DNA of 64,000 nt from Bacteroidota bacterium (GCA_018266615.1 JAFEAB010000058.1:4194-68193); one strand, 5' to 3'; positions 18,210 through 45,193 are shown, numbered from the stretch's first letter. The notes: generated by a model not told the origin, from the letters alone. Numbers and translations are program-made.

Positions 18210-18370
18210 TTGGCGGAGACGTGGTGGGAGGATAAGAATAAATTATCATAAAAAGACCTGGCATTTAAATAATACCACCGAAAGTGAAAGAATACAAAAA
18301 TTGGGAATTTATACAACTCCCGGAATAATAAATTTTTGTGGCGATTTTGCAAAAGGATCCAAATTTCACA

Positions 18371-18440
18371 AACCAGTTTTCTGCCCCCACCCCGGGGGTA
18401 AAAATAGGGAGAAAAAAAGCACAGCAATCCATTTTTAACT
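18371..18440 (-). repeat. Dispersed promoter-like/GC-hairpin repeat, copy R1
   Basis: Core GCCCCCACCCCGGGGGTAAAAAT at 18383-18405. Minus strand reads TTG-N18-TATTTTTA-CCCCCGGGGTGGGGGCAG. Confidence 0.7.
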
Positions 18441-18638
18441 AAAGAAACTTCAGCGAGATCGTATATATATTCTGTTTGAAAAGCCGCCGTTCATTTAGAT
18501 GGAAGGCATAAAAAATTGACTGTTACCGCACAATCAGGATAAAAATACGAATGCCCTGGAATGAAGGCGATTCAACTTAAATTCAAATAATGGATAACCA
18601 GTGGAAATGCATTGCCCCCACTGGCAAATTAAAATTTG

Positions 18639-21996: not shown

Positions 21997-23414
21997 CAGG
22001 TTGTTTTCTTTTTATTGGCTACTGCAAGATAATAAATTGGGATACCTGCCAGCACAATGATTAAACCGGGCCATGTGTAAGTTGGCTTATACAGAATCAG
22101 TAAAATACAAAATGCAATAGCCATCAGGATATAAACGGCAGGTAATACCGGATAACCAAATGCTTTGTAGGGCCTGTCCAAATCGGGCTTCTGCTTGCGC
22201 AGGATAAATATACCGGTAATAGTCAGGGCATAAAACATCACCACCACAAAAGAAATCATATCCAGCAGGTCGCCATACTTTCCGCTCAGGCATAAAATGC
22301 AGGCCACCAGGCATTGTATCCATAGGGCAAATTCGGGAACATTATATTTATTAAGAGTACCTGTTTTCTTAAAAAATAAGCCATCCCGGGCCATCGTGTG
22401 ATAAACCCTGGCACCGGCAAGAATAAGTCCGTTATTGCAGCCAAAAGTGGAAATCATAATCATGATGGCGATTACATAGGACCCGATATTACCAAAAATC
22501 GCCACACTTGCAGCAACCGCTACTCTGTCCTGGGGGGCTGAAGCAATATCCTTTACCGGCAATACGGCCAGGTACATGATATTTGCAAAAACATAAATTA
22601 CGGTAACAATGAGGGTACCCAGGAAAAGGCTGAGACCAATATTCCGTTTAGGGTTCTTCACCTCCCCGGCAATAAAGGTTACATTATTCCAGGCATCACT
22701 GCTGAAAATAGATCCCACCATTGAGGCTGCAATGGCACCTAAAGCGGCGGAACCTAATACAGGCCCAATAATATCCCCGGAGGAATCCAATTTCTTCATG
22801 GTCCAGGCATCGGCCCAGTTTGCCTGCCAGGCTCCACTTTTAGTGGCCACAATTAATCCGAAAATGATAAGTCCAAAAAGTGACAACAATTTAACACTGG
22901 TAAAAAAAGTCTGAATAATCTTCCCCCCTTCAATTCCCTTTGTGTTTACAAAAGTGAGGAATATGATTAACCCAATGGCCACAATCTGTCCTGCATTCAC
23001 TTTATACCACCCCAATTCCAGTAGTACATTTTCCGGTCCAAAAGCAGGATTAATGGTTCCGAGAAATTTGCTGAACGCCACCCCTACTGCCGCAATGGTG
23101 GCCGTTTGTATCACGGCAAAAAAGCTCCACCCGTATAAGAATCCGGCCAGTGGATTAAACGCTTCTTTCAGGTACACATATTGGCCTCCTGCCTTAGGAA
23201 ACATGGAGCTGAGTTCTCCATAACTGAGGGCAGCAGTAAGGGTCATAAACCCGGTGAGCAGCCAGATTACGATTAACCATCCGGCAGATCCTACATTGCG
23301 GGTAATATCGGCGCTCACTATAAATATCCCCGACCCTATCATGGATCCGGCTACTACCATGGTGGCATCAAAAAGGCTGAGAGATGGTTTGAAGGAATGT
23401 TGCGTTTCGGTCAT
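21996..23414 (-). CDS. APC-superfamily amino acid permease
   Basis: 472 aa with about 12 TM helices. N-terminal GSMIGSGIF motif. Confidence 0.85.
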   Translation of the reverse strand: MTETQHSFKPSLSLFDATMVVAGSMIGSGIFIVSADITRNVGSAGWLIVIWLLTGFMTLTAALSYGELSSMFPKAGGQYVYLKEAFNPLAGFLYGWSFFAVIQTATIAAVGVAFSKFLGTINPAFGPENVLLELGWYKVNAGQIVAIGLIIFLTFVNTKGIEGGKIIQTFFTSVKLLSLFGLIIFGLIVATKSGAWQANWADAWTMKKLDSSGDIIGPVLGSAALGAIAASMVGSIFSSDAWNNVTFIAGEVKNPKRNIGLSLFLGTLIVTVIYVFANIMYLAVLPVKDIASAPQDRVAVAASVAIFGNIGSYVIAIMIMISTFGCNNGLILAGARVYHTMARDGLFFKKTGTLNKYNVPEFALWIQCLVACILCLSGKYGDLLDMISFVVVMFYALTITGIFILRKQKPDLDRPYKAFGYPVLPAVYILMAIAFCILLILYKPTYTWPGLIIVLAGIPIYYLAVANKKKTT

Positions 23415-23447
23415 AAAAAAATCCCGTCTTTAATTGCAGACGGGATT
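23415..23447 (-). terminator. Rho-independent terminator after the ompH-like gene
   Basis: Minus strand reads ATCCCGTCT-GCAATTAA-AGACGGGAT followed by T7. The T-run abuts the ATG of the permease. Confidence 0.65.
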
Positions 23448-23467
23448 CAAGATAATCAAAGCCTTTA

Positions 23468-24088
23468 TTATTTTTTGTTTTCCTTGGCAATTTTTTCATT
23501 CATTCCGGCAATTACATCATTGGTAATATTGAGGGTAGTATCCTTGAATACAAGGTAATCCAGCCCTGTGCCGGTGGTAAGTATGTACTTGTAGGTTCCG
23601 TTGCTGTTGTATTGGGCCAGGAAGTCTTTGAGTTTCTTTTGGATATCATCCATAAACTTGTAGCTCTTCTCTGTTAATTTTTGCGTAGCAGCCTGCCTTT
23701 TTTCTTCAATGGCCTGTTGTTCCTGTAAAAGCTGGGTTTGAAATTCGGCAGCCATTTCATCGGTTATTGCCTTTCCGTTGTCGTGCTTTTTGATGAATTC
23801 ATTTTTCTTATCATTAAGGGCACGAGATGCACTCATCCATTCGTTTTCAATGGCTTTTTGTTCTCCTTCCAATTCTTTTCTTTTATCCCGGATGAAGGCA
23901 ATTTTTTCATTCAGGGAGTCGAGATCCACATAAGCAATAGGTGCTTTTTCCAATTCACTGAGCGGAGCTTTTGGAACGGCCGTTTTCACCACTGAAACAG
24001 GTTTTTGATTACCTGAAAAATGCAGGTAATACAAAATTGCAACGGCAACAATCAATACAACATTTAGTACGATAGAAAAATTCTTCAT
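23468..24088 (-). CDS. OmpH/Skp-like periplasmic chaperone
   Basis: 206 aa with a signal anchor and a long coiled-coil K/E/Q-rich body, typical of the OmpH family. Confidence 0.8.
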   Translation of the reverse strand: MKNFSIVLNVVLIVAVAILYYLHFSGNQKPVSVVKTAVPKAPLSELEKAPIAYVDLDSLNEKIAFIRDKRKELEGEQKAIENEWMSASRALNDKKNEFIKKHDNGKAITDEMAAEFQTQLLQEQQAIEEKRQAATQKLTEKSYKFMDDIQKKLKDFLAQYNSNGTYKYILTTGTGLDYLVFKDTTLNITNDVIAGMNEKIAKENKK

Positions 24089-24284
24089 CTACAGATTTTA
24101 AATTAGCCGGCAAGATATAGAGAAAGCCTTTAAATAAGACAGGCTATAGTTTTATTTATGAAAGGGTTAACGGCAAAAGTATGTAGAAGGGATTTTCACT
24201 TGGATAATGGTAGAAAGTAGAAAAAGTTCCTGGTTGGGAGAAATAATGATTTCAATTTAGAATTTAGTAAACTGCTTTCAAAAC

Positions 24285-24368
24285 GTGTTGGGCGCTTTGC
24301 TGCCCCCACCCCGGGGGTAAAAATAATGCCAGGAAAAATTGGATCAATGGATTTTGACTAAAGTATAT
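24285..24368 (-). repeat. Dispersed promoter-like/GC-hairpin repeat, copy R2
   Basis: 84-bp block identical to 24542-24625 except for one base. Core at 24302-24324. Confidence 0.85.
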
Positions 24369-24541
24369 TCAGTTTTTGGTAAATTATTTTCAGTTTATAC
24401 ATAACAATAATGCTATTAGGGTAAATAGAGAGCTTTAGCCATTCAGCAAATGGGATATTCTTTCCAGGTTATGCCACCGGTTTTTGGATGCAAGGTGAAA
24501 ATGCTAGTACTGGCTCAATGAATGGAAGCTAAAACAAAAAA

Positions 24542-24625
24542 GTGTTGGGCGCTTTGCTGCCCCCGCCCCGGGGGTAAAAATAATGCCAGGAAAAATTGGA
24601 TCAATGGATTTTGACTAAAGTATAT
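24542..24625 (-). repeat. Dispersed promoter-like/GC-hairpin repeat, copy R3
   Basis: Near-identical twin of R2, 257 bp away. Core at 24559-24581 has an A to G change in the hairpin loop. Confidence 0.85.
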
Positions 24626-24675
24626 CCGGCCCAGCTAAAATTTATTTACCGCTTATTAATTTAAAACTATTCTTC

Positions 24676-24957
24676 CTATGCCTGAATAAGGATGAATAAT
24701 GAGCTTTCGCCCATGGGTTGCCGGATGCGCGCCAGACCCGGACGGGCAGGGTACAGCACTGCCTGTGCAACTTTGAAAACCCCAATTGGATTACTTTTCA
24801 GCTTATTAGCACAAGCAACTCCGGCATAATAAAGATATATCGCCCCAAAGCCCATAAAAAAATAAGGTCCGCCCCACTCAAAATAGAGCTCATTAATCTG
24901 GATGGCACCAAAAAAAACCCGGTATATAGCCGGGCTTTTCAGATTAAATACATCCAT
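24676..24957 (-). CDS. Hypothetical small hydrophobic protein immediately downstream of rpoC
   Basis: 93-aa ORF whose ATG (24955-24957) lies 2 nt after the rpoC stop. Hydrophobic, with no family recognised. Confidence 0.3.
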   Translation of the reverse strand: MDVFNLKSPAIYRVFFGAIQINELYFEWGGPYFFMGFGAIYLYYAGVACANKLKSNPIGVFKVAQAVLYPARPGLARIRQPMGESSLFILIQA

Positions 24958-24959
24958 AA

Positions 24960-27900
24960 TTATTCTTCTTCGTCAAAGCTCATCGCTTCTTTGGTGGTTT
25001 GCAACAGTTCATACTCCTGTTTGCTGCCCACAATCATATTTTCAAATTCACGCAAACCGGTGCCAGCGGGGATATGATGACCAGTAATTACATTTTCTTT
25101 CAGGCCCAGCATTCCATCGGTTTTACCCTGTATGGCTGCGGAGCTGAGTACTTTTGTAGTTTCCTGGAATGAAGCTGCAGAAATCCAACTTTGGGTACCC
25201 AGGGAAGCCTTTGTAATTCCCAACAATAAAGGCGAGGAGGTGGCGGGTTGTGCATCACGGAATTCAACCAGTTTCTTATCTGCACGGCGAAGGACTGAAT
25301 TCTCTTCGCGTACCTCCCTAAGGGTTATAATCTGGCCCGGGCGGAGTTTTGCGCTTTCGCCACTTTCTGTAACCACTTTTTTATCAAAAATGTAATCGTT
25401 CTCAGCGTTAAAGTCGAGGCGATCTTCCGTATCCCCTTCTAAGAATTTAGTATCCCCTGCATCTTCAATGGTTACCTTACGCATCATCTGCCGAACAATT
25501 ACTTCAATGTGCTTATCGTTGATCTTCACACCCTGAAGGCGATACACCTCCTGAATTTCGTTAACTACATACTCCTGAACGGCAAATGGTCCTTTGATAG
25601 CCAGGATATCGGCCGGTGAAATTTGCCCATCGCTTAATCCGGTTCCTGCTTTTACGAAGTCACCATCCTGCACCAGGATCTGGCGGCTAAGCGGCACCAG
25701 GTATTTACGTACCACGCCATCTTTGGCTTCCACAATTATTTCGCGGTTACCACGCTTGATGGCTCCAAAGGAAACAACCCCGTCAATTTCACAAACCACA
25801 GCCGGGTTGCTTGGGTTACGCGCTTCAAACAATTCGGTAACACGAGGCAGCCCTCCGGTGATATCTTTCAATTTGCTCAGCACCCGCGGTATTTTAACCA
25901 ATACCTGTCCATTCTTCACTGTATCCCCTTCTTCAACTGCCACATGGGATCCCACGGGGAGGTTATAGGTCTTTTTATCCTTTCCTTCCACAATAATAGC
26001 GGGAAGCTTGGTCTTATCCTTGGTTTCAATAACCACTTTTTCGCGGTGGCCGGTTTGCTCATCTGCTTCCTCACGGAAGGTTATCCCTTCAATAACCGAC
26101 TCAAACTTAATGGTACCGGGAGTTTCCGCAATGATTACGTTATTGTAAGGATCCCAACTACATATCACATCTCCCTTATTAATTTTTTGCCCGTCTTTTA
26201 CATTGAGCACAGAACCGTAAGGAATATGTGTGGTATTCAGCAGGCGGTCGCTCTTTACATCTATAATCCGGATTTCACCGGTACGTCCAATAACCATTTG
26301 AACTTTCTTACCCTGGTTGTCTTCAGAGGCAACGGTACGAAGCCCATCAAACTGTATGGTTCCTTCAAACTTTGAGCTAAGTGTAGATTCTACCGAAGCA
26401 GAACCTGCCACACCACCCACGTGGAAGGTACGAAGGGTAAGCTGTGTACCTGGTTCACCAATGGATTGGGCAGCAATGATACCTACCGCATCACCCCGTT
26501 GTGCCAACATACCACTGGCCAGGTTTTTACCATAGCATTTCACACACACACCCCGGCTGCTTTCGCAAGTAAGTACCGAACGAATGTCCACTACTTCTAT
26601 ACCGGCATTTTCCACTCTCTTTGCATCATCGGTTGTAATTTCTTCTCCTGCCCTCAGTAACAATTCATCGGTTACCGGATCAAACACATCGTGCAGGGAG
26701 GTACGTCCTTCGATGCGGTCGGCAAGGGGTTCAATAATATCTTCATTATCCTTCAAAGCAGAAATAGATATTCCACGCAGGGTTCCGCAATCTTCTTCAT
26801 TGATAACCACATCCTGTGCCACATCCACCAAACGGCGGGTAAGGTAACCGGCATCCGCCGTCTTCAGGGCGGTATCTGCCAACCCTTTACGGGCACCGTG
26901 GGTAGAAATAAAGTATTCCAATACACTAAGGCCATCTTTAAAGTTGGCGAGGATGGGATTCTCGATAATTTCACTACCGGAGGAACCGGATTTACGCGGT
27001 TTAGCCATCAGGCCTCTCAGTCCGGCCAACTGCTTAATTTGCGCCTTGCTACCACGAGCTCCCGAATCAAGCATCATATAAACCGAATTGAACCCTTGTT
27101 TATCGGAAGCTAATTCGCGAATAAGCGTTTCCGTTACTTTGGTATCTACCCGGCTCCAGATGTCAATAATCTGATTGTACCGCTCGTTATTGGTGATCAG
27201 CCCCATGTTGTAGCTTTCCCACACTTCCGATACTTCCTGCTGGGCAATTTCCACCAGTTCTGCCTTTACTTCCGGGATGATAAGGTCATTAATATTGAAC
27301 GACAGCCCACCCTTGAAAGCCATGTGGTATCCCAGGGTCTTGATGTCATCAAGGAATTTTGCAGTGATGGGTACACTGGTCCATTTAATGATGTCGCCAA
27401 TGATTTCCCGCAATGTTTTCTTGGTAATGAGGGCATTAATAAAGCCTACTTCTTTGGGAACAAACTGGTTAAAAATCACCCTTCCAACTGTAGTATCAAT
27501 CAGTTTATGCTCCAGGCTGCCGTCTTTTTTACGGACATCCACTTTTACTTTTATATTGGCATGTAGATCCGCCCGCTTTTCATTGAAAGCGATAATCACT
27601 TCCTCTGCCGAATAGAACGCCTTTCCTTCTCCTTTAATAACCAGGTCGCCCTCTGTTTTTCTACCCTTGGTAATATAGTACAACCCAAGTACCATGTCCT
27701 GCGAGGGAAGAGTAATAGGCGTACCATTTTGTGGGTTGAGGATATTATGCGATGAAAGCATTAATAACTGGGCCTCCAAAACGGCCGCATTGCTCAAGGG
27801 TACATGCACAGCCATTTGGTCACCATCAAAGTCGGCGTTGAAAGCGGTTGTAACCAATGGATGCAACTGGATCGCCTTCCCTTCAATCAGTTTGGGTTGA

Positions 27901-29252
27901 AACGCCTGGATGGACAGTCTGTGCAGTGTTGGAGCCCGGTTCAGCATTACCGGGTGGCCTTTTAGAATATTTTCGAGGATATCCCAGATAATGGCTTCTT
28001 TTTTATCAACCAGCTTGCGGGCACTCTTCACAGTTTTTACAATTCCTCTTTCAATCAACTTACGGATAATAAAAGGTTTAAACAGTTCAGCGGCCATATC
28101 CTTTGGCAATCCGCATTCATGCATTTTTAATTCGGGGCCTACCACAATTACCGAACGTCCCGAATAGTCAACGCGTTTACCCAACAGGTTCTGCCGGAAA
28201 CGCCCTTGTTTACCTTTCAGTACATCACTTAACGATTTAAGGGCACGGCCACCTTCTGCTTTTACGGCGTTGGATTTACGGCTGTTATCAAACAGGGAGT
28301 CAATCGCTTCCTGTAGCATGCGTTTTTCATTCCGCAGAATCACTTCAGGGGCTTTAATTTCCAGCAGCCTCTTCAACCGGTTGTTACGGATAATAACCCG
28401 GCGGTAAAGGTCATTCAGGTCGGATGACGCAAAACGGCCTCCGTCCAATGGAACAAGCGGACGCAACTCCGGAGGGATTACCGGGATGTATTGCATCACC
28501 ATCCATTCGGGCCGGTTGTGAATTCGGGTATTGGCTTCACGGAAACTTTCTACTACGCTTAAACGCTTAAGGGCATCTGCTTTCCTTTGTTGGGAAGTTT
28601 CATTAGCCGCAGAATTACGCAGATCGAAGCTGAGCTGGTCGAGGTCGAGCCTTTCCAGCATAGCATGTACGGCTTCTGCCCCCATCTTGGCGATGAATTT
28701 TTCTGGATCTTCATCCGGCAACAACTGGTTGTCTTTGGGAAGAGCATCCAAAATATCGAGGTATTCTTCCTCGGTGAGCAGGTCGGCATAATTTTGTCCC
28801 TTATCGGCCCGAACCCCGGGTTGAATTACCACAAAGCGTTCGTAATAAATAATGGTTTCCAGTTTCTTGGAACTCATGCCGAGGAGGTAACCAATTTTAT
28901 TAGGCAGCGATTTAAAGTACCAGATGTGTACTACCGGAACTACCAGTTTAATGTGGCCCATTCTTTCGCGGCGTACTTTTTTCTCTGTTACTTCCACCCC
29001 ACAACGGTCGCAAACAATTCCCTTATAACGGATACGCTTATACTTTCCGCAAGCGCATTCATAATCTTTTACAGGACCAAAAATCCTTTCGCAGAATAAG
29101 CCATCCCGTTCGGGCTTATAAGTACGGTAATTTATCGTTTCCGGTTTCAACACTTCGCCATAGCTGCGCTCCAGGATGGTATCCGGCGAAGCCAGGCCAA
29201 TGGTAATTTGCGAGAATGTTGATTTTGGACGGTTTTCCTTTTTAATGGCCAT
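24960..29252 (-). CDS. rpoC: DNA-directed RNA polymerase subunit beta-prime
   Basis: 1430 aa. Zn-binding CACGKY..C..CGVEV, catalytic [12 protein letters not shown], and trigger-loop/bridge-helix regions are recognisable. Confidence 0.99.
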
Positions 29253-29362
29253 AGTATAATATGGTTTATTTTTTTTGTTTTTAAATCAACCGGGGTTCAA
29301 AGCCCGGCTTCATTGGCGTCGCACTCTTGTACAGGATATCCTCACTGTACTAACGTTAACTA

Positions 29363-32300
29363 CTAATCGAATGTAAGGTTCAATCCCAGACCCCTCAATT
29401 CGTGCACCAGTACGTTAAACGATTCGGGTATGCCTGCCCTTGGGATGTTATCACCTTTAACAATGGCTTCATAGGTCTTAGCCCTTCCAATGATATCATC
29501 CGATTTAAGGGTGAGCAGTTCCTGCAGGATATTGGAAGCGCCGTATGCTTCGAGCGCCCAAACTTCCATTTCCCCAAAACGCTGGCCACCAAACTGGGCT
29601 TTACCTCCCAACGGCTGTTGGGTAATTAGGCTGTATGGCCCGATGGAACGTGCGTGCATCTTATCATCTACCATGTGGTGTAGTTTAATCATATAGATAA
29701 TACCCACTGTGGCTTTCTGATCGAAACGTTCGCCGGTTTCCCCGTCGTACAGGTATGTATGTCCAAACTTTGGAAGCTTGGCTTCATTGAGTTTACCGTC
29801 AATTTCTTCGGGAGATGCCCCATCAAAAATGGGGGTTGCAAATCGCACACCCAGTTTTTCGCCGGCCCATCCTAATACCGTTTCGTAAATCTGTCCGATA
29901 TTCATACGGCTGGGTACCCCCAGTGGATTCAGTACGATATCAACCGGTGTTCCGTCTTCCAGGAAGGGCATATCTTCTGCACGTACAATTTTGGCAACAA
30001 TCCCTTTATTTCCGTGACGCCCCGCCATCTTATCTCCCACCTTCAGTTTACGTTTCACGGCCATATAAACTTTTGCCAGTTTCAATACCCCGGCGGGCAA
30101 TTCATCCCCTATCGAAATATTGAACTTTTCACGTTTATACCTTCCCAGTTCTTCGTTGTACTTGATATTGTAGTTGTGAAGCAGGGTGTTGATGAGATCA
30201 TCCGTTTTAGCATCGCCGCTCCATCCCAGTGGGTTTACATTCTGGTAGTCGATATTGGCAAGGTTTTTTGCATTAAACTTCGCGCCTTTTCCAATAAGCA
30301 CCTCTCCAAAGTTATTGGTTACACCCTGGCTGGCTTTTTCTTTCAGTAATTGCAGCAACTTATCCTGCAATAATTGAAGCAATTCCTCTTCATTCTTTTC
30401 GTGGGTCTTTTCAATCTTTTCGAGCTGTGCTTTCTCCCTTACTTTGGCATTCTTATCTTTCTTGGCCCGTTGGAAAAGTTTCTTATTTATTACAACCCCT
30501 TCGGTACCGCTTGGGGCTTTCAATGAAGCATCTTTTGCATCGCCCGCCTTATCGCCAAAGATGGCGCGGAGCAATTTTTCTTCCGGAGTTGGGTCGCTCT
30601 CTCCTTTCGGTGTGATTTTACCAATAATGATATCGCCTTCTTTAATGGAGGCACCGATGCGGATGATCCCGTTCTGGTCGAGGTCTTTTGTGGCTTCCTC
30701 ACTTACGTTCGGAATATCGGGGGTAAGTTCTTCTTCACCCAGTTTAGTATCCCTCACTTCCGTTTCAAACTCACTGATATGGATAGACGTAAACAAATCT
30801 TCCTTCACCACTTTTTCAGATATCACGATCGCATCTTCAAAGTTATACCCCTTCCAGGGCATGAATGCCACTTTCAGGTTACGGCCCAGTGCGAGCTCGC
30901 CATTTTTGGTGGCATATCCTTCGGTAAGGAAATCCCCTTCCAGGATTTTCTGCCCTTTCGCCACGGCCGGGCGGAGGTTAATACAGGTTTCCTGGTTAGT
31001 GCGTACAAACTTGGTGAGCTTATACACTTTCAGGTCGTCTTCAAAACTAACAAGGCGTTGGTTTTCGCTGCGTTTATACCGTACATGGATTTCGTTCGCA
31101 TCTACAAATTCTACTACGCCATCTCCTTCCGCATGGATCTGAATACGAGCATCCCGGGCGGCTTTACCTTCGAGGCCGGTTCCTACAATCGGAACTTCCG
31201 GACGAATCAGGGGTACTGCCTGGCGCTGCATGTTCGATCCCATCAGGGCGCGGTTGGCATCATCATGTTCGAGGAATGGAATCAACGATGCGCTCAGCCC
31301 TACAATCTGGTTGGGGGCTACATCCATGTATTCCACTTCATGCTTATCGAGGATGGGGAAATCGCCGGTTTGGCGACTGTTCACCATTTCGTTTACAAAA
31401 TTTCCTTTCTCATCCATTGCACTGTTTGCCTGCGCAATTTTTGCGGTATCTTCTTCTTCGGCGCTGAGGAAGGTGATTTTTTTCAGATCGGCGCGGCCAT
31501 CCGTTACTTTAAGATATGGCGTTTCAATAAAGCCCATATCATTAATCTTCGCATGAACACAAAGTGTAGAAATCAGTCCAATGTTTGGCCCTTCTGGTGT
31601 TTCAATCGTACAAAGGCGGCCGTAGTGCGAGTAGTGTACATCGCGCACTTCAAACCCGGCCCGTTCGCGGCTCAAACCACCGGGCCCGAGAGCGGAAATA
31701 CGGCGTTTATGCGTAATCTCACTCAAGGGGTTGGTTTGATCGAGGAATTGCGATAACTGTGAGGTTCCGAAGAAAGAATTAATCACAGATGAAAGGGTAC
31801 GCGCATTAATAAGATCAACCGGCGTAAACACTTCATTATCCCGCACATTCATTCTTTCGCGGATGGTGCGGGCCATACGGGCCAGCCCTACCCCAAATTG
31901 AGCATAGAGTTGTTCACCCACAGTGCGTACACGGCGGTTGGAAAGGTGATCGATATCATCCACTTCACTCTTACCATTGGTTAATTGTACGAGGGTTTTA
32001 ATGATGGCAATAATATCATCTTTCGTAAGTACCTTCTTTTCGATTGGCATGTTGAGGCCGAGACGGCGGTTTATTTTATACCGTCCCACTTCACCCAGGT
32101 CGTACCGTTTATCGGAAAAGAATAATTTATCGATGATGCCGCGCGCGGTTTCATCATCGGGTGCATCGGCACCGCGAAGTTGTTTATATATATGTTGTAC
32201 TGCTTCCAGCTCGCTATTGGAAGTATCTTTATTCAGGGTATTATAAATGATGGCATAATCGCCGCTCACTTCTTCCTTCTGAACAAACACGCTCTTCACG

Positions 32301-33172
32301 CCCATTTCCAGGATCATGGCAATGTTTTCTTCATCGAGGACAGAATCGCGTTCGAGGATGATTTCGTTTCTTTCGAGCGACACCACCTCGCCGGTATCTT
32401 CATCCACAAAATCTTCCACCCAGGTACGCAGTACACGGGCGGCCAGACGTTTGCCTACTTGTTTCTCGAGATTCTTTTTATCGGCTTTCACTTCATCAGC
32501 CATACCAAAAAGTTCAAGAATATCTTTATCTGTTTCATACCCGATAGAACGCAGTAAGGTAGTAACCGGGAATTTCTTCTTCCGGTCGATGTATGCAAAC
32601 ATTACGTTGTTGATATCAGTAGCAAATTCCATCCAGGCTCCCTTAAACGGAATTACACGGGCAGAATAAATTTTAGTCCCATTGGGGTGCATCGATTGGC
32701 CGAAGAACACGCCGGGAGAACGGTGCAACTGGCTCACCACCACCCGTTCAGCACCATTAATAACAAAAGTACCGCGGGGGGTCATGTAAGGGATATTTCC
32801 CAAAAACACATCCTGAACGATGGTTTGAAAGTCAACATGTTCTTCATCGTTACAACTTAGGCGAAGTTTAGCTTTAAGAGGAACGGCATAGGTTAGCCCC
32901 CGTTCAATACATTCATCGATGGAATACCGTGGTGGATCTACGAAATAATCAAGAAACTCCAGCACGAAAATATTCCGGGTATCGGTAATGGGGAAGTTTT
33001 CCTTAAACACACGGAAAAGCCCTTCCACATTACGTTTGTCGGGGGTAGTTTCTAACTGGAAAAAGTCTTTAAACGACTGGATCTGGATTCCTAACAAATC
33101 CGGGGTTTCCGCCAGGAATTCAACTTTTCCGAAGTTAATTCTCTGTGCAGAATGATTGTTTGTTGCAGACAT
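29363..33172 (-). CDS. rpoB: DNA-directed RNA polymerase subunit beta
   Basis: 1269 aa. Conserved blocks include [43 protein letters not shown] and [12 protein letters not shown]. Confidence 0.99.
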
Positions 33173-33629
33173 AAAGTAGTTAAAACGTTTTAATGAGAGA
33201 GGTCTTTAACTCAGGGCAGAAATTGTGAATTCAGAAACCGGTATCACTGAATGCCACTGACCCTAAATTAAAGGAGCGCAAAGATACTAAATTCCGGGCA
33301 ATATTTTTTGAATTTTTAAGGAATTTTATATAATTGGTTCAGTTTTTGCTCAAATGGCGACTCCTTAAAAATTTAAGGAGAATTAGGCATGAACAGGGAA
33401 AAGCAGATCGATCCAATAACATTTTTATTTAATATTAACAAGTCCAGAAATTAATTCATAGGCTGATACATCATTTTTCACCTTTTTTCGGTTTTTAGAA
33501 ACCCATGGGTTGCCGGGGCAACCAGGATATAAAATCGATATGCTAAAAATACGAACCAGGAAAAATTCTAACACGGATAATGGTGAATGTTTGTATAGAG
33601 CCAGTAGCAACCAGGGATAAAAATGATGG

Positions 33630-33715
33630 CCTCTTGTTGCCCCCACCCCGGGGGTAAAAATATAGGAAAGGAAATTTCGAACAAAGAATATTAACTGAAG
33701 AAAATTCAGTTTTAC
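33630..33715 (-). repeat. Dispersed promoter-like/GC-hairpin repeat, copy R4
   Basis: Core at 33639-33661, lying 184 bp from copy R5 (tandem arrangement). About 460 nt upstream of the rpoB start. Confidence 0.8.
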
Positions 33716-33877
33716 ATTAATTTTTTTTGGGAAATTTCCTTGAACCGGAAGAGAAAATATTTATTCTCCAAACCTGGCAATTTGAGAAATTCACGAGCGA
33801 CCAAAGAAAAATTTAGGCACGTTGCTGCCCCCACCCCTGGGGTAAAAATATAGGAAAGGAAAATTCGATCAAAGAAT
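33710..33877 (-). repeat. 168-bp long direct repeat A (contains core copy R5 at 33827-33849)
   Basis: Aligns with 35902-36068 with about 10 substitutions and one 1-nt indel, counted by eye. Confidence 0.85.
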
Positions 33878-34450
33878 ATTTTTCTGGGAGTGAAATAAAA
33901 AGTATTAGGTATAGGGTTCAATATCTTGCGGCGTTTGCATAGTGTTTTAAATCTTATAAGATAGTAAAACATTGCCTCGTGCATATATTTGTAATATATT
34001 TTACCTTTTTCCCACTCTATATTTCCTGTAGCCCCTTCAATAATTATAAAATCAAAAAAGGTCTTTAGCCTTCCTTGGTTTACTGCATTTTTCACTACAT
34101 AGGTCATGCTTTGTATATTATCAGGATAGTTATAAATCGATGCCCCATTTTGCAGTTCTTTAAAAAATAAATTGCATTCGTCAAAACAAAAATGTTCTGC
34201 ACTTGAACATACTTGTTTATAATCTTTGCTTTCCATGAACAGGCCGCTCAACAATTTATTATTCCTGAATAAACAGAAAGTGCCTGTGTTATAATCATGC
34301 CGATTGCTGATTACATCATGATTGTTCAAAACTTCTTCTGTCACAAAATCACGGATATTACCATATACCACATCAATGCCGCCATGTCCCTAAAAATCGT
34401 AGCCTTTTTCTATTTCTGCGAATAGAAATTCAAAGGCTAGTTTAAAATCG
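33712..34450 (-). pseudogene. Decayed remnant of a DUF6625-like (capsule-locus glycosyltransferase-like) gene
   Basis: The ORF lacks an N-terminal domain. The upstream in-frame continuation ..IEKGYDF*GHGGIDVVYGNIRDF.. is broken by a TAG. The 3-prime end runs into the repeat element (..IFTPGVGAA.. is translated repeat). The family assignment comes from my recollection of the GDIR.F / G.F.L.RN motifs. Confidence 0.45.
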
Positions 34451-34717
34451 CAGAGTTTGTATAGGTAAACTATGTTGATTTGAAATTCTATTTTTTTGAT
34501 GCGGTGTTTTGAATTTCTTCGATTGTAATGTGAATTATTTTGCATTACTTGGTTTGTTTGGAATGGCTTCTTGATTAAAAGTTTTAATTATAAAATCGAT
34601 TGTTGGATTGTGGGAGCATGAGTGAATGAAGAATAGTCCATACTAGCAGGTGAGAATGGCGACTGAGCTTTGCGGATATTCTATACATATAGTTTTACAG
34701 GCGTTTTAAATTTTTGT

Positions 34718-35860
34718 TTAACGTATTAGTTCTTGTAACAACTCGCTAAGCTTTTCTAAGTTATCATTATCCTCCCGTTGAGCACTGCTATAAACGATAG
34801 AGCCAGTTGGGGAAATTAAATAAATAGCTGGAATTGAAGTGATGCCAAATTTCTTTTGAATATCTAAATCATTGAAGTTTTCCCAATCTAATTTATATCT
34901 ATTTACTGCTGACTTCCACTTGTTGCTGTCAATATCAATAGATACAGAAATAATCCGAAGCTTTTCTTTAGGATATTTTTCCTTAATATTTTTTATGGCT
35001 GGTATTTCTCTGATGCATGGTACACACCATGAAGCCCAAAATTGTAATAATGTATAATTATCAGCTAAATCTTTATAACTAAATTTTTTTATATTTCCAT
35101 TAAAATCCTTTGAGATAAAGTTGGGTGAATATGCTCCTTCAACAATTTGTCTCTTAGAGATTAAATATTTTGAAATTTGTTTGCCTTCTTTACTATGAAT
35201 ACGAGTCTTGGGAAAAACTTTGTAAAAAAACTTTAATAGAGAATCAGCATTACTAAAATTGGCTCTGTTTACAAAATAGGAATTAAAATAGTCGAGCGAA
35301 AAATAAGAATTAGGATTCATCTCAATAAATAAAAGTATTTTATTCCTATATATCTCTCTATTATGTAAAAAAATAATTTTTAAAGAATCTTTGCTTTGAA
35401 TATTGGAAAATTTAAATTCTCTATAGGAGTACATATATTTTTGGTACTCATCTTCAATACTACCATACAAATTATCGATGATGTTTTGAAAGCACGCATT
35501 GATGACTTTACTCCTCAGGAATGGTTTTTTGGATGTGTCATTAGGTTCGCAAATTAGTTGAAAAGGCTTTTGACCAAAATAAAACGATGTATCAATGCTT
35601 GCCGAGTCTTTTGTCAGATAAATATAAGCAGATGAATATTTGGTCTTCATAACCCCTTTTAAATTGACTACTTTATTTTTTATTTTTAGTTTGTACGATT
35701 TATTTTCAAAAATATTATTAATATCAATATTTAAACTATCTCCTTCAAAACAAGTTGGCATTTCTATATGGATATTGAACTGATTTTGGCCAAATGATTT
35801 ATTGTTACTAAGACAAATCCAAACGAAGAAAAAAACAAAGCATGACAAATTCCATTTCAT
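34718..35860 (-). CDS. TlpA-like thiol:disulfide oxidoreductase (thioredoxin fold, AhpC/TSA family) with an N-terminal extra domain
   Basis: 380 aa with a signal peptide. C-terminal thioredoxin-fold domain has the active site FWASWCVPC. The gene is visibly more AT-rich than the flanking rpoB and rplL. Confidence 0.8.
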   Translation of the reverse strand: MKWNLSCFVFFFVWICLSNNKSFGQNQFNIHIEMPTCFEGDSLNIDINNIFENKSYKLKIKNKVVNLKGVMKTKYSSAYIYLTKDSASIDTSFYFGQKPFQLICEPNDTSKKPFLRSKVINACFQNIIDNLYGSIEDEYQKYMYSYREFKFSNIQSKDSLKIIFLHNREIYRNKILLFIEMNPNSYFSLDYFNSYFVNRANFSNADSLLKFFYKVFPKTRIHSKEGKQISKYLISKRQIVEGAYSPNFISKDFNGNIKKFSYKDLADNYTLLQFWASWCVPCIREIPAIKNIKEKYPKEKLRIISVSIDIDSNKWKSAVNRYKLDWENFNDLDIQKKFGITSIPAIYLISPTGSIVYSSAQREDNDNLEKLSELLQELIR

Positions 35861-35901
35861 AGAATAATTTGTAAGTTTTAATTTGGCTGAATAAAATACA
35901 A

Positions 35902-36068
35902 TTTTACATTAATTTTTTTTGAAAATTTCCTTGAACCGGGAGAGAAAATATGTATCCGCCAAACCTGGCAATTTGAGAAATTCACGAGCGACCAAAGAAA
36001 AATTTTGGCCCGTTGCTGCCCCCACCCCGGGGGTAAAAATAAAGGAAAGGAAAATTCGATCAAAGAAT
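35902..36068 (-). repeat. 167-bp long direct repeat B (contains core copy R6 at 36018-36040)
   Basis: About 93 percent identical by eye to 33710-33877. Lies directly upstream of the TlpA-like gene. Minus strand reads TTTG-N19-TATTTTTA-CCCCCGGGGTGGGGGCAGCAA. Confidence 0.85.
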
Positions 36069-36453
36069 TTCAGCTCAAGTAAATTCAGTTTTGGAAAACT
36101 CTTTTCACCTCCTTATTGAAATAAGATAAATTCCTTACCAAATGGTTTATAAGAGCAAAATCATTTTCATTATCGCTGATATGAATTTCGGTAAGGAAAA
36201 GGAATATTCCTTTAAGTTTAGACCTGCACCTAAACAGCAATCACAAAAAAAGTTTTTTACTTATTTGTATGGTAGAGATGGTTCTTTCCCTACCACCATT
36301 AAATTCGTTAATAGGATCATATTAAAGTCAGGAAAAAATAATGGGTTCTGCACTAAAAAATTATATCCATTAAAAAGTGGTCTTTCAAAAAACATTTTGA
36401 TACTTTTTTTGGAATTGAGTGCTTTCACCCCTCTATTGAATATCTACACCTAG

Positions 36454-36485
36454 AAAAAAAGCTGCCTCCAAATGGAGGCAGCTTC
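36454..36485 (-). terminator. Strong rho-independent terminator after rplL
   Basis: Minus strand reads AAGCTGCCTCC-ATTT-GGAGGCAGCTT followed by a T-run. The stem is 10-11 bp and perfect. Confidence 0.85.
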
Positions 36486-36504
36486 CTTAAAAGAAATAAT
36501 CGAA

Positions 36505-36882
36505 TTAAGCAATTTCTACTTCAGCGCCTGCTTCGGTGAGCTTCGCCTTCAGTTCTTCTGCAGAAGCTTTGTCAACACCTTCTTTTACAGGTTTGGGGGC
36601 CTGGTCAACCAGGTCTTTTGCTTCTTTCAGACCGAGGCCGGTAAGTTCTTTAACGATTTTAACAACAGCCAGTTTGTTGGCGCCACCGCTTTTCAGGATA
36701 ACGTTGAATGAAGTCTTTTCTTCGGCTGCTGCTGCGCCACCGCCATCGCCACCACCGCTTACTACAACTGCTGCTGCAGCCGGTTCGATGCCGTATTCGG
36801 ATTTCAAAAATTCAGCTAATTCCTGTACTTCCTTTACGGTAAGGTTTACCAGGTTTTCTGCGAGTGATTTTACGTCTGCCAT
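36505..36882 (-). CDS. rplL: 50S ribosomal protein L7/L12
   Basis: [23 protein letters not shown].. plus an Ala/Gly hinge and the C-terminal domain ..[16 protein letters not shown] prefer the ATG at 36882 over the track start at 36906. Confidence 0.95.
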
Positions 36883-36992
36883 AATCTTGATTTTTTCCGG
36901 CTTCATATTCGCACCAGGCGAATCCGTCGGAGGGTTTAAAAAAATGAATTTAGTGTGCCTTTGGTTCCCGTCGGCCAGGGATATTCAGATGA

Positions 36993-37625
36993 TTATTCTG
37001 CTTTTGGTTCTTCAGCAGCAGGTTCACTGCCTTCAGCTTTTGGGGCTTCAGGAGCAGTAGCTTCTGGTGCATTTTCTTCAGTTGCTGCTTCGGCTGCCTT
37101 CGCTTCTACCGGCGCCGGAGTTGCTGATGGTTTAACTGCGTTTTCCTTGTTTTCCAGGGCGCCAATTACGCGCTGGATGGGAGAAAGTAACAGCCCAACG
37201 ATTTCACCAATAAGTTCATTTTTGGTTTTAATCTTGGTTAATGCATTTAACTGGTTATCGCCAACAAATACATCGCCATTAATGAAGGCGGCTTTCAGTA
37301 CCGGTTTCTCCTGGTTGCCTGCCTTGCGGAAGCTGCTGATGATAACTGCCGGTTCTTTGGGATTATCGCAAAACATAAGTGCGGTAACCTTATTTAAAGA
37401 ATCGTATACACCGCTGTATTTATCAGCATCAATGCTTTCAAGTGCTTTGCGGATAAGGGTATTCTTAGCCACTTTCATTTCTACTTGTTTATTGTAGCAA
37501 TGTTTGCGGAGTTCATTTACCTGAGCAACGGTCAGGCTCTCTGTATCGGTAACATAGAAATTGCTGTACTGGGAGAATTTGCCCTTCAGCACTTCTATCA
37601 CTTCGTTTTTTTCCTGTTTTGTCAT
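36993..37625 (-). CDS. rplJ: 50S ribosomal protein L10 with an acidic Ala/Glu/Pro-rich C-terminal extension
   Basis: MTKQEKNEVIEVLKGKF... is typical of L10. At 210 aa it is long, with a roughly 45-aa low-complexity tail. Confidence 0.95.
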   Translation of the reverse strand: MTKQEKNEVIEVLKGKFSQYSNFYVTDTESLTVAQVNELRKHCYNKQVEMKVAKNTLIRKALESIDADKYSGVYDSLNKVTALMFCDNPKEPAVIISSFRKAGNQEKPVLKAAFINGDVFVGDNQLNALTKIKTKNELIGEIVGLLLSPIQRVIGALENKENAVKPSATPAPVEAKAAEAATEENAPEATAPEAPKAEGSEPAAEEPKAE

Positions 37626-37656
37626 AACAATGGTTTTTTAACCCGGGATTGCCGAA

Positions 37657-38346: not shown

Positions 38347-38375
38347 TTCTTTATTGATAATTTAAGGTTGATGAA

Positions 38376-38822: not shown

Positions 38823-39221
38823 TGTAAAAATTTTTGGTGTTAGCGTTCCGGGATATTCCTGGAACTCCCAATTTCCCTTGCGGGAGTCGTAAAAGAACTA
38901 TTTGGGGCGGCAAAGGTAATAGAAATTTAAATAGCCCCAAAATCTTTTCAACCATATTGCCCCTCAACTGGAATATCGCCTTATTGATATTGAAAAAAGG
39001 TTTGGGAGCCGACATAAAGGTACGGTTTTCAGCGCTTTATGCAACAACCTCGCTATAAATATATTAGCCAGGAATGCACGAATGAAATGCATTATCCACG
39101 TATTAAGTTTCTCCTTTATAATCTGCTTTTTAATATAGGGAAAGGTTTGCCACCCGTATTTCAAGAATAAACACCTGCTCAATTGCTTTCGCAGTTAAGG
39201 GATTTCGGAAAAAAAGTTAGG

Positions 39222-39310
39222 GTAGTTTGCTGCCCCCACCCCGGGGGTAAAAATAATGACAGAAAAAATTCGAACAAAGTAATTTGACTGATGAATTTTT
39301 AGTTTGACTT
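39222..39310 (-). repeat. Dispersed promoter-like/GC-hairpin repeat, copy R7 (about 430 nt upstream of rplK)
   Basis: Core at 39232-39254. Minus strand has TTTG (39275-39278), N19, TATTTTTA (39248-39255), then CCCCCGGGGTGGGGGCAGCAAA. Confidence 0.8.
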
Positions 39311-39352
39311 TATTCCTGTTTAGTTGGAAGTAGAGTGGAGAATTTGTCAGGG

Positions 39353-39913
39353 CCACGAATGCACGAATAAAATACCTAAGCCACGAATGCACAAATAAAT
39401 TCCATAAGCCACGAATGCACGAATGAAATCCCTAAGCCACGAATGCACGAATAAAATACCTAAGTCACGAATGCACAAATTAAATATCTAAGCCACGAAT
39501 GCACGAATGAAATACCTAAGCCACGAATGCACAAATGAAATACCTAAGCCACGAATGCACAAATTAAATATCTAAGCCACGAATGCACGAATGAAATACC
39601 TAAGCCACGAATGCACGAATAAAATACCTAAGTCACGAATGCACGAATGAAATACCTAAGCCACGAATGCACAAATAAATTCCATAAGCCACGAATGCAC
39701 GAATGAAATACCTAAGCCACGAATGCACAAATAAATTCCATAAGCCACGAATGCACAAATGAAATACCTAAGCCACGAATGCACGAATAAAATACCTAAG
39801 CCACGAATGCACGAATGAAATCCCTAAGCCACGAATGCACGAATAAAATACCTAAGTCACGAATGCACGAATAAAATACCTAAGCCACGAATGCACGAAT
39901 GAAATTACCTAAA
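39353..39913. repeat. Tandem array of 20 units of 28 bp (consensus CCACGAATGCACGAATGAAATACCTAAG), no spacers
   Basis: Unit starts fall exactly at 39353+28k for k=0-19. Each unit holds two 8-bp direct half-repeats (CACGAATG CACGAAT.). Substitutions are restricted to a few positions. 28 is not a multiple of 3, and stops occur in every frame. Confidence 0.95.
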
Positions 39914-39955
39914 AGGAAAAAATATCAACCGCTTGAGGGGCTATTCCAAATGGTT

Positions 39956-42607: not shown

Positions 42608-42683
42608 TAAAATAAAAATGATAAGCCAGCGCTGTTATCAATACTGCACTAACTTATCAAATAAAAATAGTTGCTTAACAGGA

Positions 42684-43427: not shown

Positions 43428-43510
43428 TTTTGGAAACAGGTTTTCTCATATAAAGTGCAAAAGTGCCTTTCTAATGCTATTGCAAATTAAAATGAAATAG
43501 TTTTTTCAAC

Positions 43511-43825: not shown

Positions 43826-43842
43826 AAATTAAGGTTTGCCGC

Positions 43843-43863
43843 AATAATAATAATAATAATAAT
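43843..43863. repeat. (AAT)7 microsatellite 17 nt upstream of the S1 start codon
   Basis: Counted directly. The equivalent tracts differ in length in the other cassettes. Confidence 0.9.
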
Positions 43864-45176: not shown

Positions 45177-45193
45177 AAATTAGGGTTTGCCGT

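What the first reader, a model, noticed from the sequence alone, without database searches (positions are those of the whole stretch)
24285..24625. Dispersed repeat of about 85 bp combining a Bacteroidota-type promoter motif with a GC hairpin: seven co-oriented copies in 64 kb
Core GCCCCCACCCCGGGGGTAAAAAT (plus strand) occurs at 18383, 24302, 24559, 33639, 33827, 36018 and 39232, always in the same orientation. R2 (24285-24368) and R3 (24542-24625) are 84-bp twins with one mismatch. On the minus strand every copy reads (T)TTG, N18-19, TATTTTTA, then CCCCCGGGG(T/C)GGGGGCAGCAA. A short second stem and a T-run follow 10-20 nt later. Established knowledge: the Bacteroidota sigma-A promoter consensus is -33 TTTG and -7 TAnnTTTG with a spacing of about 19 nt. 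Six of the seven copies lie upstream of minus-strand genes (the ompH-like gene, rpoB, the TlpA-like gene and rplK). R1 instead faces the 3-prime end of a plus-strand gene. Inference: this is a mobile or recombinogenic promoter cassette, or a family of very short hairpin RNAs (promoter, then 5-prime hairpin, then weak terminator). It supplies transcription starts to the fragments of the interrupted ribosomal/RNAP operon.
Basis: partly seen in the sequence, partly recalled or inferred. Interest (0 to 1): 0.65.

Follow-up and report, generated by a model that had tools for sequence, protein, structure and literature searches.

The report
Dispersed intergenic repeat with promoter-like core
The seven repeats are real copies of a lineage-specific family of 110-135 bp intergenic repeats (a few dozen to about 100 per genome) in a wastewater Ferruginibacter-like bacterium; they look like promoters, but the neighbouring ribosomal and RNA polymerase genes use their own older promoters.

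Summary
The 23-nt core occurs seven times on one strand, against 0 expected. R2 and R3 are 84-nt twins with one mismatch.

The unit is longer than stated, about 110-135 bp. Read on the minus strand it is: hairpin CTGAA-N6-TTYAG, TTTG, 19 nt with a T-run, TATTTTTA, CCCCCGGGGNGGGGG, CAGCAA, a weak stem, then a T-run.

I found 89 copies at 45 distinct loci in the window, one Ferruginibacter MAG (94% identical to the window over rpoB-rpoC) and two wastewater metagenomes. Metagenome depth suggests a few dozen to about 100 copies per genome.

Two more distant relatives with the same gene order have no copy. Their rpoC-ompH spacer is 132-137 bp, against 871 bp here. They keep the same rpoB and ompH upstream sequences and their own terminators.

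Metatranscriptome contigs put the RNA 5' ends at 33252-33261 (rpoB) and 38886-38896 (rplK). That is about 340-380 nt downstream of R4 and R7. The rplK end lies just below a canonical TTTG-N19-TACCTTTG promoter.

Across loci, half of the classifiable sites lie between convergent genes. In 25 of 37 sites the promoter-like side faces a gene's 3' end.

Best reading: a new REP/BOX/BrickBuilt-like dispersed repeat that changes by tandem duplication and gene conversion. It does not supply the operon promoters. Why a 29-nt block stays almost invariant is unexplained.

The parts
18360..18491 (-). R1, the most diverged copy (no T-run, CAGAAA). It lies between convergent genes.
   Evidence: nhmmer 74.6 bits. 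The relative L066 has only 64 bp at this site, against 429 bp here.
24276..24402 (-). R2. On the minus strand: TATTTTTA 24325-24318, palindrome CCCCCGGGGTGGGGG 24317-24303.
   Evidence: An orthologous copy is present in the relative that is 94% identical to the window here (L033).
24531..24657 (-). R3. Its central 84 nt are a twin of R2 (one mismatch), while its hairpin arm and both flanks differ, as a gene-conversion tract would leave them.
33614..33741 (-). R4, 442 nt upstream of the rpoB ATG.
   Evidence: Orthologous to the third copy in L010.
33799..33933 (-). R5 (core variant CCCCAGGGG). It has a 12-nt insertion after the upstream hairpin.
35992..36116 (-). R6, 132 nt upstream of the TlpA-like gene.
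39206..39345 (-). R7, long form. TTTG 39278-39275, TATTTTTA 39255-39248, palindrome 39247-39233, CAGCAA 39232-39227, T-run 39215-39209.
39340..39920 (-). Array of 20-21 tandem 28-bp units (TTAGGTATTTCATTCGTGCATTCGTGGC) directly upstream of R7. The same unit precedes many copies in relatives.
   Evidence: families D1 and D6.
39056..39103 (-). Single 28-bp-like unit that closes the repeated module downstream of R7.
   Evidence: D6 reference copy.
33722..33877 (-). One arm of a 156-bp direct repeat (R5 core plus its downstream module). Its partner is 35913-36068.
   Evidence: family D12 (94% identity).
35913..36068 (-). The other arm of the 156-bp direct repeat (R6 core plus its downstream module). 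The two arms bracket the TlpA-like gene and a truncated DUF6625 gene.
   Evidence: family D12.
38911..38941 (-). Not part of the repeat. This is the canonical promoter of the rplK operon, TTTG-N19-TACCTTTG. RNA 5' ends lie at 38896 and 38886.
33252..33270 (-). Not part of the repeat. It holds the rpoB -7-like box TAATTTAG (33270-33263) and RNA 5' ends at 33261-33252.
   Evidence: Conserved in L010, L066 and L068.
24910..24939 (-). Not part of the repeat. This is the rpoC intrinsic terminator, AAAAGCCCGGCTATATACCGGGTTTTTTTT, homologous to the terminators of the relatives.
   Evidence: Read from the alignment.
36453..36482 (-). Not part of the repeat. This is the rplL intrinsic terminator, GGAAGCTGCCTCCATTTGGAGGCAGCTTTTTTT.
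   Evidence: RNA contigs end at 36516-36524.

Best explanation
R1-R7 belong to a lineage-restricted family of non-coding, non-autonomous repeats that sit in intergenic spacers of the core genome. The window comes from an uncultured Ferruginibacter-like (Chitinophagaceae) bacterium from activated sludge. The family is of the same general kind as REP/BIME, the pneumococcal BOX element and the Porphyromonas BrickBuilt element.

Shown:
- The copies are absent from the same spacers in two more distant syntenic relatives. Those spacers already carried terminators and promoters.
- Copy number at one locus changes by tandem duplication, and neighbouring copies are homogenised over short tracts.
- Copies mark the edges of at least one duplication that brackets foreign genes (the TlpA-like gene and a DUF6625 fragment).

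Inferred:
- The promoter-like TTTG-N19-TATTTTTA, the GC palindrome and the T-run travel as parts of the repeat. Any transcription from them is weak or ends at the element's own T-run. The neighbouring genes therefore neither need it nor are visibly driven by it.
- The nearly invariant 29-nt block TATTTTTACCCCCGGGGNGGGGGCAGCAA is kept either by a sequence-specific process (recognition by an unidentified protein, or biased gene conversion) or by selection.

The machinery that first spread the copies is unknown.
For: Family and copy number:
- The exact core occurs in only one of 185,579 species representatives, a Ferruginibacter MAG with 26 matches in 19 stretches; one further match is in an unrelated flank.
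- 35 more stretches come almost entirely from two metagenomes, with none in viral contigs.
- An nhmmer profile finds 89 copies in 63 clusters at 45 distinct loci.
- Core depth relative to unique flanks is 24-96x in four DNA metagenomes and 32-43x in three DNA-like runs.

Absence in relatives:
- The syntenic 20-kb regions L066-L069 have no copy at nhmmer E<=10.
- Their rpoC-ompH spacer is 132-137 bp against 871 bp here, and the R1 site is 64 bp against 429 bp.

Placement:
- Of 30 fully classified loci, 15 are convergent, 8-9 tandem co-oriented, 4 tandem anti-oriented and 2-3 divergent.
- The neighbours are ordinary housekeeping genes, and no family recurs among the 25 most frequent.

Turnover:
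- L017 has two copies where L050 has one, and L013 has three where L030 has one.
- L010 carries an exact tandem repeat of about 195 bp where the window has a different spacer.
- R2 and R3 are twins over 84 nt only.
- A 156-bp direct repeat brackets the TlpA-like gene and the DUF6625 fragment.

Not the operon promoters:
- RNA 5' ends and conserved promoters lie elsewhere.
- Only 1 of about 13 metatranscriptomes that hold the rplK operon holds the segment just downstream of R7.

No known RNA family matches.
Against: - No terminal inverted repeats, target-site duplication, clean empty site between close relatives, or nearby transposase were found, so true transposition is not shown.
- The promoter-like motif and the 29-nt block are much better conserved than the rest. 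Every position of the block is at least 90% conserved, even in 31 copies that were not used to fetch the loci, against 30-80% elsewhere.
- Orthologous pairs differ at 1.9% of core positions, against 18.8% in the rest of the element and 16.5% in the flanks. This comparison carries an ascertainment caveat, because most loci were fetched by the core.
- A sister subfamily keeps the hairpin and TTTG-N20-TATTTTTA but has a different GC hairpin.

The last three points argue for a constraint that a purely neutral repeat would not have.
Confidence: 0.6

Rival explanations
1. Each copy is a self-contained mini-gene: a sigma-A promoter, a transcript of about 35-45 nt that begins in or at the GC palindrome, and its own terminator. 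Together they would form a multicopy family of tiny RNAs, or weak outward promoters that give sense or antisense transcripts.
For: - TTTG-N19-TAnnTTT is conserved at 80-99% per position in 76 distinct copies, and also in a subfamily with a different GC hairpin.
- A T-run follows 30-40 nt after the box in most copies.
- G-U pairs are tolerated only in this orientation.
- Low-depth RNA contigs lie just downstream of R7 (X30, 39001-39203) and R4 (X29, 33445-33587), while the genes upstream of them show no RNA.
Against: - The last base of the -7 box is A in about 97% of copies, while the two clear promoters of the window have TACCTTTG.
- No 5' end maps to a copy.
- One RNA contig runs through the -7 box of another copy.
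- The TlpA-like gene 132 nt below R6 shows essentially no RNA.
- The low-depth contigs are sporadic (1 of about 13 runs) and look like single fragments.
- There is no significant covariation (75 of 500 shuffles reach the score).
- Two thirds of the sites would fire into a convergent gene.
Confidence: 0.22
2. The element acts in the RNA of the upstream gene as a terminator or a 3'-end protective hairpin, as REP sequences do for some E. coli mRNAs. That is why it sits at gene 3' ends and between convergent genes.
For: - Half of the classifiable sites are convergent, and the upstream gene is co-oriented in 30 of 38 sites.
- The element has a GC hairpin, a weak stem GGGCA/UGCCC (72% of cells paired) and a T-run.
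- R3 starts 19 nt after a called ORF.
Against: - rpoC, rplL and ompH each have a separate canonical terminator, and the relatives terminate without the element.
- The T-run is 3-6 nt away from a 4-6 bp stem, and the terminator scan called only one of seven copies.
- The distance from the upstream stop codon ranges from 7 to 785 nt.
- In tandem gene contexts outside the window the orientation is about random.
- Co-orientation with the upstream gene is automatic in convergent spacers.
Confidence: 0.08
3. The invariant palindrome with its AT-rich, T-tract flanks is a DNA site for a protein. One version is a recombinase that inserts or excises cassettes bounded by co-oriented copies, in an integron-like or Xer-like way. 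Another is a nucleoid or uptake-signal protein.
For: - The 29-nt block is nearly invariant while its flanks drift.
- Co-oriented copies bracket the TlpA-like gene and DUF6625 fragment here, and HipA_2 plus DUF3037 in L001.
- The loop base of the palindrome is free to vary (C, T or A).
Against: - The other intervals between copies hold housekeeping genes such as GMP synthase.
- No recombinase recurs next to copies.
- The TlpA duplication extends 100 nt or more beyond the core, as homologous recombination would give rather than site-specific recombination.
- The arms of the palindrome are only 5 bp long.
Confidence: 0.08

Closest known systems
BrickBuilt MITE-like element of Porphyromonas gingivalis (PMC4596501)
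   Same: Same phylum. It is species-restricted, always intergenic and present in tens of copies. It contains a spacer-less minisatellite (23-nt units there, 28-bp units here) flanked by leader and tail parts, and it carries promoter elements.
   Different: BrickBuilt has small inverted-repeat ends and promoter activity measured in both directions. Here no terminal inverted repeats were found, only some copies carry the minisatellite, the hallmark is an invariant GC palindrome, and promoter activity is not shown. There is no sequence similarity that I could test.
BOX elements of Streptococcus pneumoniae (from my own knowledge; not looked up)
   Same: Modular intergenic repeats of roughly 100 copies per genome, with an internal module repeated in tandem a variable number of times. 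They have no transposase of their own and can fold as hairpins.
   Different: Different phylum and sequence. BOX elements are not known for a phylum-type promoter consensus, and they lack a 29-nt invariant block.
REP/BIME and REPIN-RAYT systems of Proteobacteria (from my own knowledge)
   Same: A short GC-rich imperfect palindrome in extragenic space, enriched at gene 3' ends and between convergent genes, species-specific, with a core kept far better than its surroundings.
   Different: REPINs are inverted pairs tied to a RAYT gene. Here the pairs are co-oriented and 190-365 bp apart, and no Y1 transposase was seen in about 0.4 Mb of flanking DNA. The conserved unit is 110-135 bp with AT-rich promoter-like parts.
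Bacteroidota sigma-A promoters (-33 TTTG, -7 TAnnTTTG; summarised in PMC7366714)
   Same: TTTG, 19 nt, TAnnTTT at the right spacing in nearly every copy.
   Different: The final G is A in about 97% of copies. No transcription start is mapped to a copy. The bona fide promoters of the window (rplK, tRNA-tuf) read TACCTTTG.
Correia/NEMIS elements of Neisseria (from my own knowledge)
   Same: Small dispersed repeats that carry promoter and terminator-like signals and alter or insulate the transcription of neighbours.
   Different: Correia elements have clear terminal inverted repeats and a TA target duplication. Neither was found here.

Membership tests
Bacteroidota sigma-A promoter | -33 TTTG and -7 TAnnTTTG about 19 nt apart | tested here: inconclusive
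   TTTG-N19-TATTTTTA is the family consensus. The -7 box is at least 90% conserved at every position and TTTG at 80-90%. The last base is A, not G, except in 2-3 copies. Four of the seven window copies match TTTG-N18-20-TAnnTTTR exactly.
Bacteroidota sigma-A promoter | Transcripts start a few nt downstream of the -7 box | tested here: not met
   The RNA 5' ends of rpoB (33252-33261) and rplK (38886-38896) lie about 340-380 nt downstream of R4 and R7. No contig ends at a copy. Only assembled contigs were available, so short or rare RNAs are not excluded.
MITE | Terminal inverted repeats | tested here: not met
   Only one 12-nt candidate pair lies around the R7 composite. About 1.6 such pairs are expected by chance, and the motif is absent from all 20 loci then held.
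MITE | Target-site duplication and filled versus empty sites | tested here: inconclusive
   The sites are empty in distant relatives, but the spacers are too diverged to place the junctions. Among closer loci no clean empty site was found, only changes in copy number.
MITE | A related autonomous element with a transposase | tested here: inconclusive
   Among 116 neighbouring proteins no family recurred among the 25 most frequent. The whole genome was not available.
REP/REPIN-RAYT | Short GC-rich palindrome, extragenic, many copies, species-specific | tested here: met
REP/REPIN-RAYT | Inverted pairs (REPINs) and a RAYT gene flanked by them | tested here: not met
   Copies within a cluster are co-oriented. 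No Y1 transposase appeared among the families listed for the neighbours. A genome-wide search was not possible.
BOX/BrickBuilt-type modular repeat | Modules that include an internal unit repeated in tandem a variable number of times | tested here: met
   The 28-bp unit occurs 20-21 times before R7, once after its downstream module, and in 1 to many copies before many copies in relatives.
Structured small RNA family | Covariation that supports a conserved structure | tested here: not met
   RNAalifold finds only the invariant CCCCC/GGGGG stem. For the two named helices 74% of cells are paired, but 75 of 500 shuffles reach the covariation score. No Rfam family matches.
Intrinsic terminator | GC-rich stem immediately followed by a U-tract, at the 3' end of a transcription unit | tested here: inconclusive
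   The scan called one of seven copies. The stem is 4-6 bp and lies 3-6 nt before the T-run. The flanking genes have separate canonical terminators.
Integron attC / cassette array | Cassettes bounded by recombination sites, with an integrase nearby | tested here: not met
   The intervals hold both housekeeping and unknown genes. No integrase appeared among the families listed. The duplication around the TlpA-like gene extends well beyond the core.

The most novel reading that the evidence does not exclude
The copies are not junk. The invariant 29-nt block, with its sigma-A-like box, would be the working part of a new Bacteroidota system. One version is about 50-100 mini-genes, each making a tiny RNA that starts with a 5' hairpin. 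The other is the recognition site of an undiscovered recombinase or domesticated transposase that keeps the sites identical and lets gene cassettes (the TlpA-like gene here, HipA_2 plus DUF3037 in L001) enter operon junctions.
Probability: 0.15. Interest if true: 0.7.

Novelty: new member of a known kind. Interest (0 to 1): 0.35.

Why it matters
Dispersed intergenic repeats are poorly charted in Bacteroidota, and not at all, as far as I could find, in Chitinophagaceae from wastewater.

This family shows that a sequence can carry a near-perfect phylum-type promoter consensus and sit upstream of rplK, rpoB and, in a relative, rpsJ, and still not be their promoter. That is a caution for motif-based promoter annotation.

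The repeats also break metagenome assemblies: contigs of several runs end in the core. They also mark sites of local rearrangement around essential operons.

The selective or mechanistic reason for the nearly invariant 29-nt block is a concrete open question, and it is testable.

Tried and rejected
- Rfam at gathering and at E<=1 found nothing on the repeats; the only hits were chance hits on the rplL terminator.
- Consensus folding and pair counting showed no significant covariation.
- Terminal inverted repeats: one 12-nt candidate around the R7 composite is at chance level and absent from the other loci.
- A sigma-54 reading (TGGCAC-N5-TTAC): the GGCAC part varies between copies and the -12 GC is AC, so I rejected it by inspection.
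- A replication-strand bias of the kind shown by IS200/IS605 or REP elements: element orientation against locus GC skew gave 12 against 13, although the window itself lies on one replichore.
- A recurrent neighbouring transposase or recombinase: none among the 25 most frequent families for 116 neighbours.
- An integron-like cassette content: mixed.
- A viral origin: 0 matches in IMG/VR.
- An automatic search for empty sites among fetched loci found only copy-number differences.
- An exact-protein look-up with rplL returned only the same arrangement.
- RNA over R1 and its neighbours: no coverage, so uninformative.
- Three 'RNA' runs (X25, X34, X41) proved to be DNA-like, with flat depth.
- An upstream module without the core: only one further instance in the DNA held at that point (window plus L001-L055), so the modules are coupled.

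Full report
**Observation.** The 23-nt core occurs seven times in the window, always on the + strand. None is expected by chance. R2 and R3 are identical over exactly 84 nt except for position 24308. Alignment of the seven copies and a profile search show that the conserved unit is about 110-135 bp, and that the window holds no further diverged copies. All neighbouring genes lie on the minus strand. In order they are: ompH-like, rpoC, rpoB, a truncated DUF6625 gene, a TlpA-like thioredoxin gene, rplL, rplJ, rplA and rplK.

**Anatomy.** Read on the minus strand, the consensus of 76 distinct copies has these parts:
- a hairpin, CTGAA-N6-TTYAG;
- TTTG;
- a 19-nt spacer with a well-kept T-run;
- TATTTTTA;
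- the palindrome CCCCCGGGGNGGGGG, whose central base is free (C, T or A);
- CAGCAA;
- a weak stem, GGGCA/TGCCC;
- a T-run.

The block TATTTTTACCCCCGGGGNGGGGGCAGCAA is at least 90% conserved at every position. This holds even among 31 copies that were not used to fetch their locus. The rest of the unit is 30-80% conserved.

Many copies are 'long forms'. These are preceded by one or many 28-bp units (TTAGGTATTTCATTCGTGCATTCGTGGC) and a connector of about 45 nt. In the window, 20-21 such units (39340-39920) precede R7. Several downstream modules also recur in subsets of copies. A sister subfamily keeps the hairpin and TTTG-N20-TATTTTTA but has another GC hairpin.

**Distribution.** The exact core is found in one species representative out of 185,579. 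That is an uncultured Ferruginibacter MAG, with 26 matches in 19 stretches. The only other match, in a Marinimicrobia contig, has unrelated flanks. The MAG is 94% identical to the window over rpoB-rpoC.

One metagenome scan gave 35 more stretches, almost all from two samples. Viral contigs gave none. The window sequence is present in activated-sludge and wastewater runs.

In four DNA metagenomes the summed depth of contigs over the core is 24-96 times that of the unique flanks. In three DNA-like runs it is 32-43 times. This suggests a few dozen to about 100 copies per genome. It may be an overestimate if related strains are present in the same samples.

**Context.** The profile finds 89 copies in 63 clusters at 45 distinct loci. 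Using simple ORF calls, 30 loci could be fully classified: 15 are between convergent genes, 8-9 are tandem and co-oriented, 4 are tandem and anti-oriented, and 2-3 are divergent.

The downstream gene is on the same strand in 12 sites and on the opposite strand in 25. Outside the window, orientation in tandem contexts is about even. Orientation does not follow GC skew either (12 against 13 loci). The neighbours are ordinary housekeeping genes, and no family recurs among the 25 most frequent. In the MAG, three copies lie upstream of rpsJ.

**The copies are absent from more distant relatives.** I searched with the ompH-like protein and fetched two syntenic relatives: L066/L067 (83% amino-acid identity) and L068/L069 (69%). 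The gene order from rplL to the M1 peptidase is the same, but the profile finds no copy at E<=10.
- Their rpoC-ompH spacer is 132-137 bp, consisting of a terminator followed by the ompH-proximal sequence. The window has 871 bp there, with R3 and R2.
- The R1 site is 64 bp in L066, against 429 bp here.
- The 180 nt before rpoB and the roughly 110 nt before ompH are conserved across all of them.
- Each genome has its own terminators after rplL and rpoC.

So the rplKAJL, rpoBC and ompH units were already separate transcription units before the repeats arrived.

**Transcription.**
- Metatranscriptome contigs end at 33257 (X27, X33), 33261 (X28, X32) and 33252 (X29). Adapter is joined directly to the end in X27 and X28.
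- They also end at 38886 (X27, X33) and 38896 (X28), all with adapter joined directly.
- The rplK end lies just below a canonical TTTG-N19-TACCTTTG promoter at 38941-38911. The same TACCTTTG box precedes the tRNA-tuf cluster at 53556-53527.
- The rpoB end lies 2-6 nt below TAATTTAG.
- R2-R6 show essentially no RNA coverage, and the TlpA-like gene shows depth 0 in two runs and one low-depth contig in a third, while rplL has depth 20-100.
- Only one of about 13 true metatranscriptomes holds the segment just below R7.
- Two sporadic low-depth contigs lie just downstream of R7 (X30) and R4 (X29). They are compatible with weak activity, but also with stray fragments.

Only assembled contigs were available, so RNAs of about 40 nt cannot be seen.

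**Dynamics.**
- Orthologous loci differ in copy number: L017 has two copies and L050 one; L013 has three and L030 one.
- The MAG has an exact tandem repeat of about 195 bp where the window has R5, a different spacer, and R4.
- R2 and R3 share only the central 84 nt, as a gene-conversion tract would.
- A 156-bp direct repeat (94% identity), consisting of the R5 or R6 core plus its downstream module, brackets the TlpA-like gene and the truncated DUF6625 gene. A decayed hairpin remnant precedes the TlpA-like gene (family D12).
- In orthologous pairs the core differs at 1.9% of positions, the rest of the element at 18.8% and the flanks at 16.5%. Most loci were fetched by the core, so this contrast is inflated by ascertainment.

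**Structure.** RNAalifold predicts only the invariant stem. For the two variable helices 74% of cells pair, against 23-44% when the partner is slid, but covariation is not significant. Rfam has no match.

**Interpretation.** The evidence fits a new family of dispersed intergenic repeats of the REP, BOX or BrickBuilt kind (PMC4596501 for BrickBuilt). It carries a promoter-like module that matches the sigma-A consensus given in PMC7366714, except for the last base.

The idea that it supplies the starts of the operon fragments is not. What keeps the 29-nt block constant, and how the copies first spread, remain open. No inverted ends, target duplication or transposase were found.

Noticed in passing
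window 39340-39920: A spacer-less array of 20-21 tandem 28-bp units (TTAGGTATTTCATTCGTGCATTCGTGGC on the minus strand), each holding the 8-mer CATTCGTG twice. The same unit, alone or in arrays, sits upstream of many repeat copies in relatives. TTCGTG/CACGAA also forms hairpins in one downstream module.
   Followed up: partly
window 42578-47869: Four tandem copies, with a period of about 1350 bp and 63-92% identity in pieces, each carrying a 247-248-aa gene with a weak Porph_ging (PF09697) match. A 135-aa ORF lies between two of them.
   Followed up: partly
window 38823-50502: About 11.7 kb separates nusG (50503-51129) from rplK (38376-38822). It holds a DUF4920 gene, a sulfatase-family gene, the four Porph_ging paralogues, an 883-aa CarboxypepD_reg protein and the 28-bp array. 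The usual tuf-secE-nusG-rplK cluster is therefore split here too.
   Followed up: partly
window 33712-35860: A TlpA-like thioredoxin gene (34718-35860) and a DUF6625 gene that lacks about its first 100 profile positions (33712-34371; its ORF runs into R5) lie between rplL and rpoB. Relatives have other content there: a 195-aa ORF on the opposite strand in L066, and nothing in L068.
   Followed up: partly
window 24676-24957: The 93-aa ORF after rpoC has no Pfam match, and its start overlaps the rpoC terminator (24939-24910). It is absent from relatives and is probably not a gene.
   Followed up: partly
window 24700-24760: A GC-rich stretch (CAGGCAGTGCTGTACCCTGCCCGTCCGGGTCTGGCGCGCATCCGGC) inside the expanded rpoC-ompH spacer has three other matches in the fetched loci. 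It may be another small repeat.
   Followed up: no
window 53527-53556 and 38911-38941: Two exact TTTG-N18/19-TACCTTTG promoters, upstream of the tRNA-tuf cluster and of rplK. They give a local standard for strong promoters in this organism.
   Followed up: yes
L019 880-1150, L012 3700-3800, L022 11-215: A sister repeat subfamily with the same hairpin and TTTG-N20-TATTTTTA but another GC hairpin (GGGGGAAGGGGCGGCAGCCCCGGGG). It occurs in tandem in L019.
   Followed up: partly
window 36142-36453 (+): A 103-aa ORF on the opposite strand just after the rplL terminator. It is called as a gene in most of the ten fetched contigs that carry this rplL, and it has no Pfam match.
   Followed up: no
window 23000-40200, run X26: A run labelled as transcriptomic RNA-seq of a coded organism A covers this bacterial region at flat depth (about 9-17), genes and spacers alike. 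The bacterium is present there, and the signal behaves like DNA.
   Followed up: no
window 36505, run X33: One metatranscriptome contig matches rplL up to its stop codon and then continues into a different terminator (TTTTGCAGTTTACTGCAAAA) that is absent from the window. A related strain with another rplL-rpoB spacer is therefore present in that sample.
   Followed up: partly
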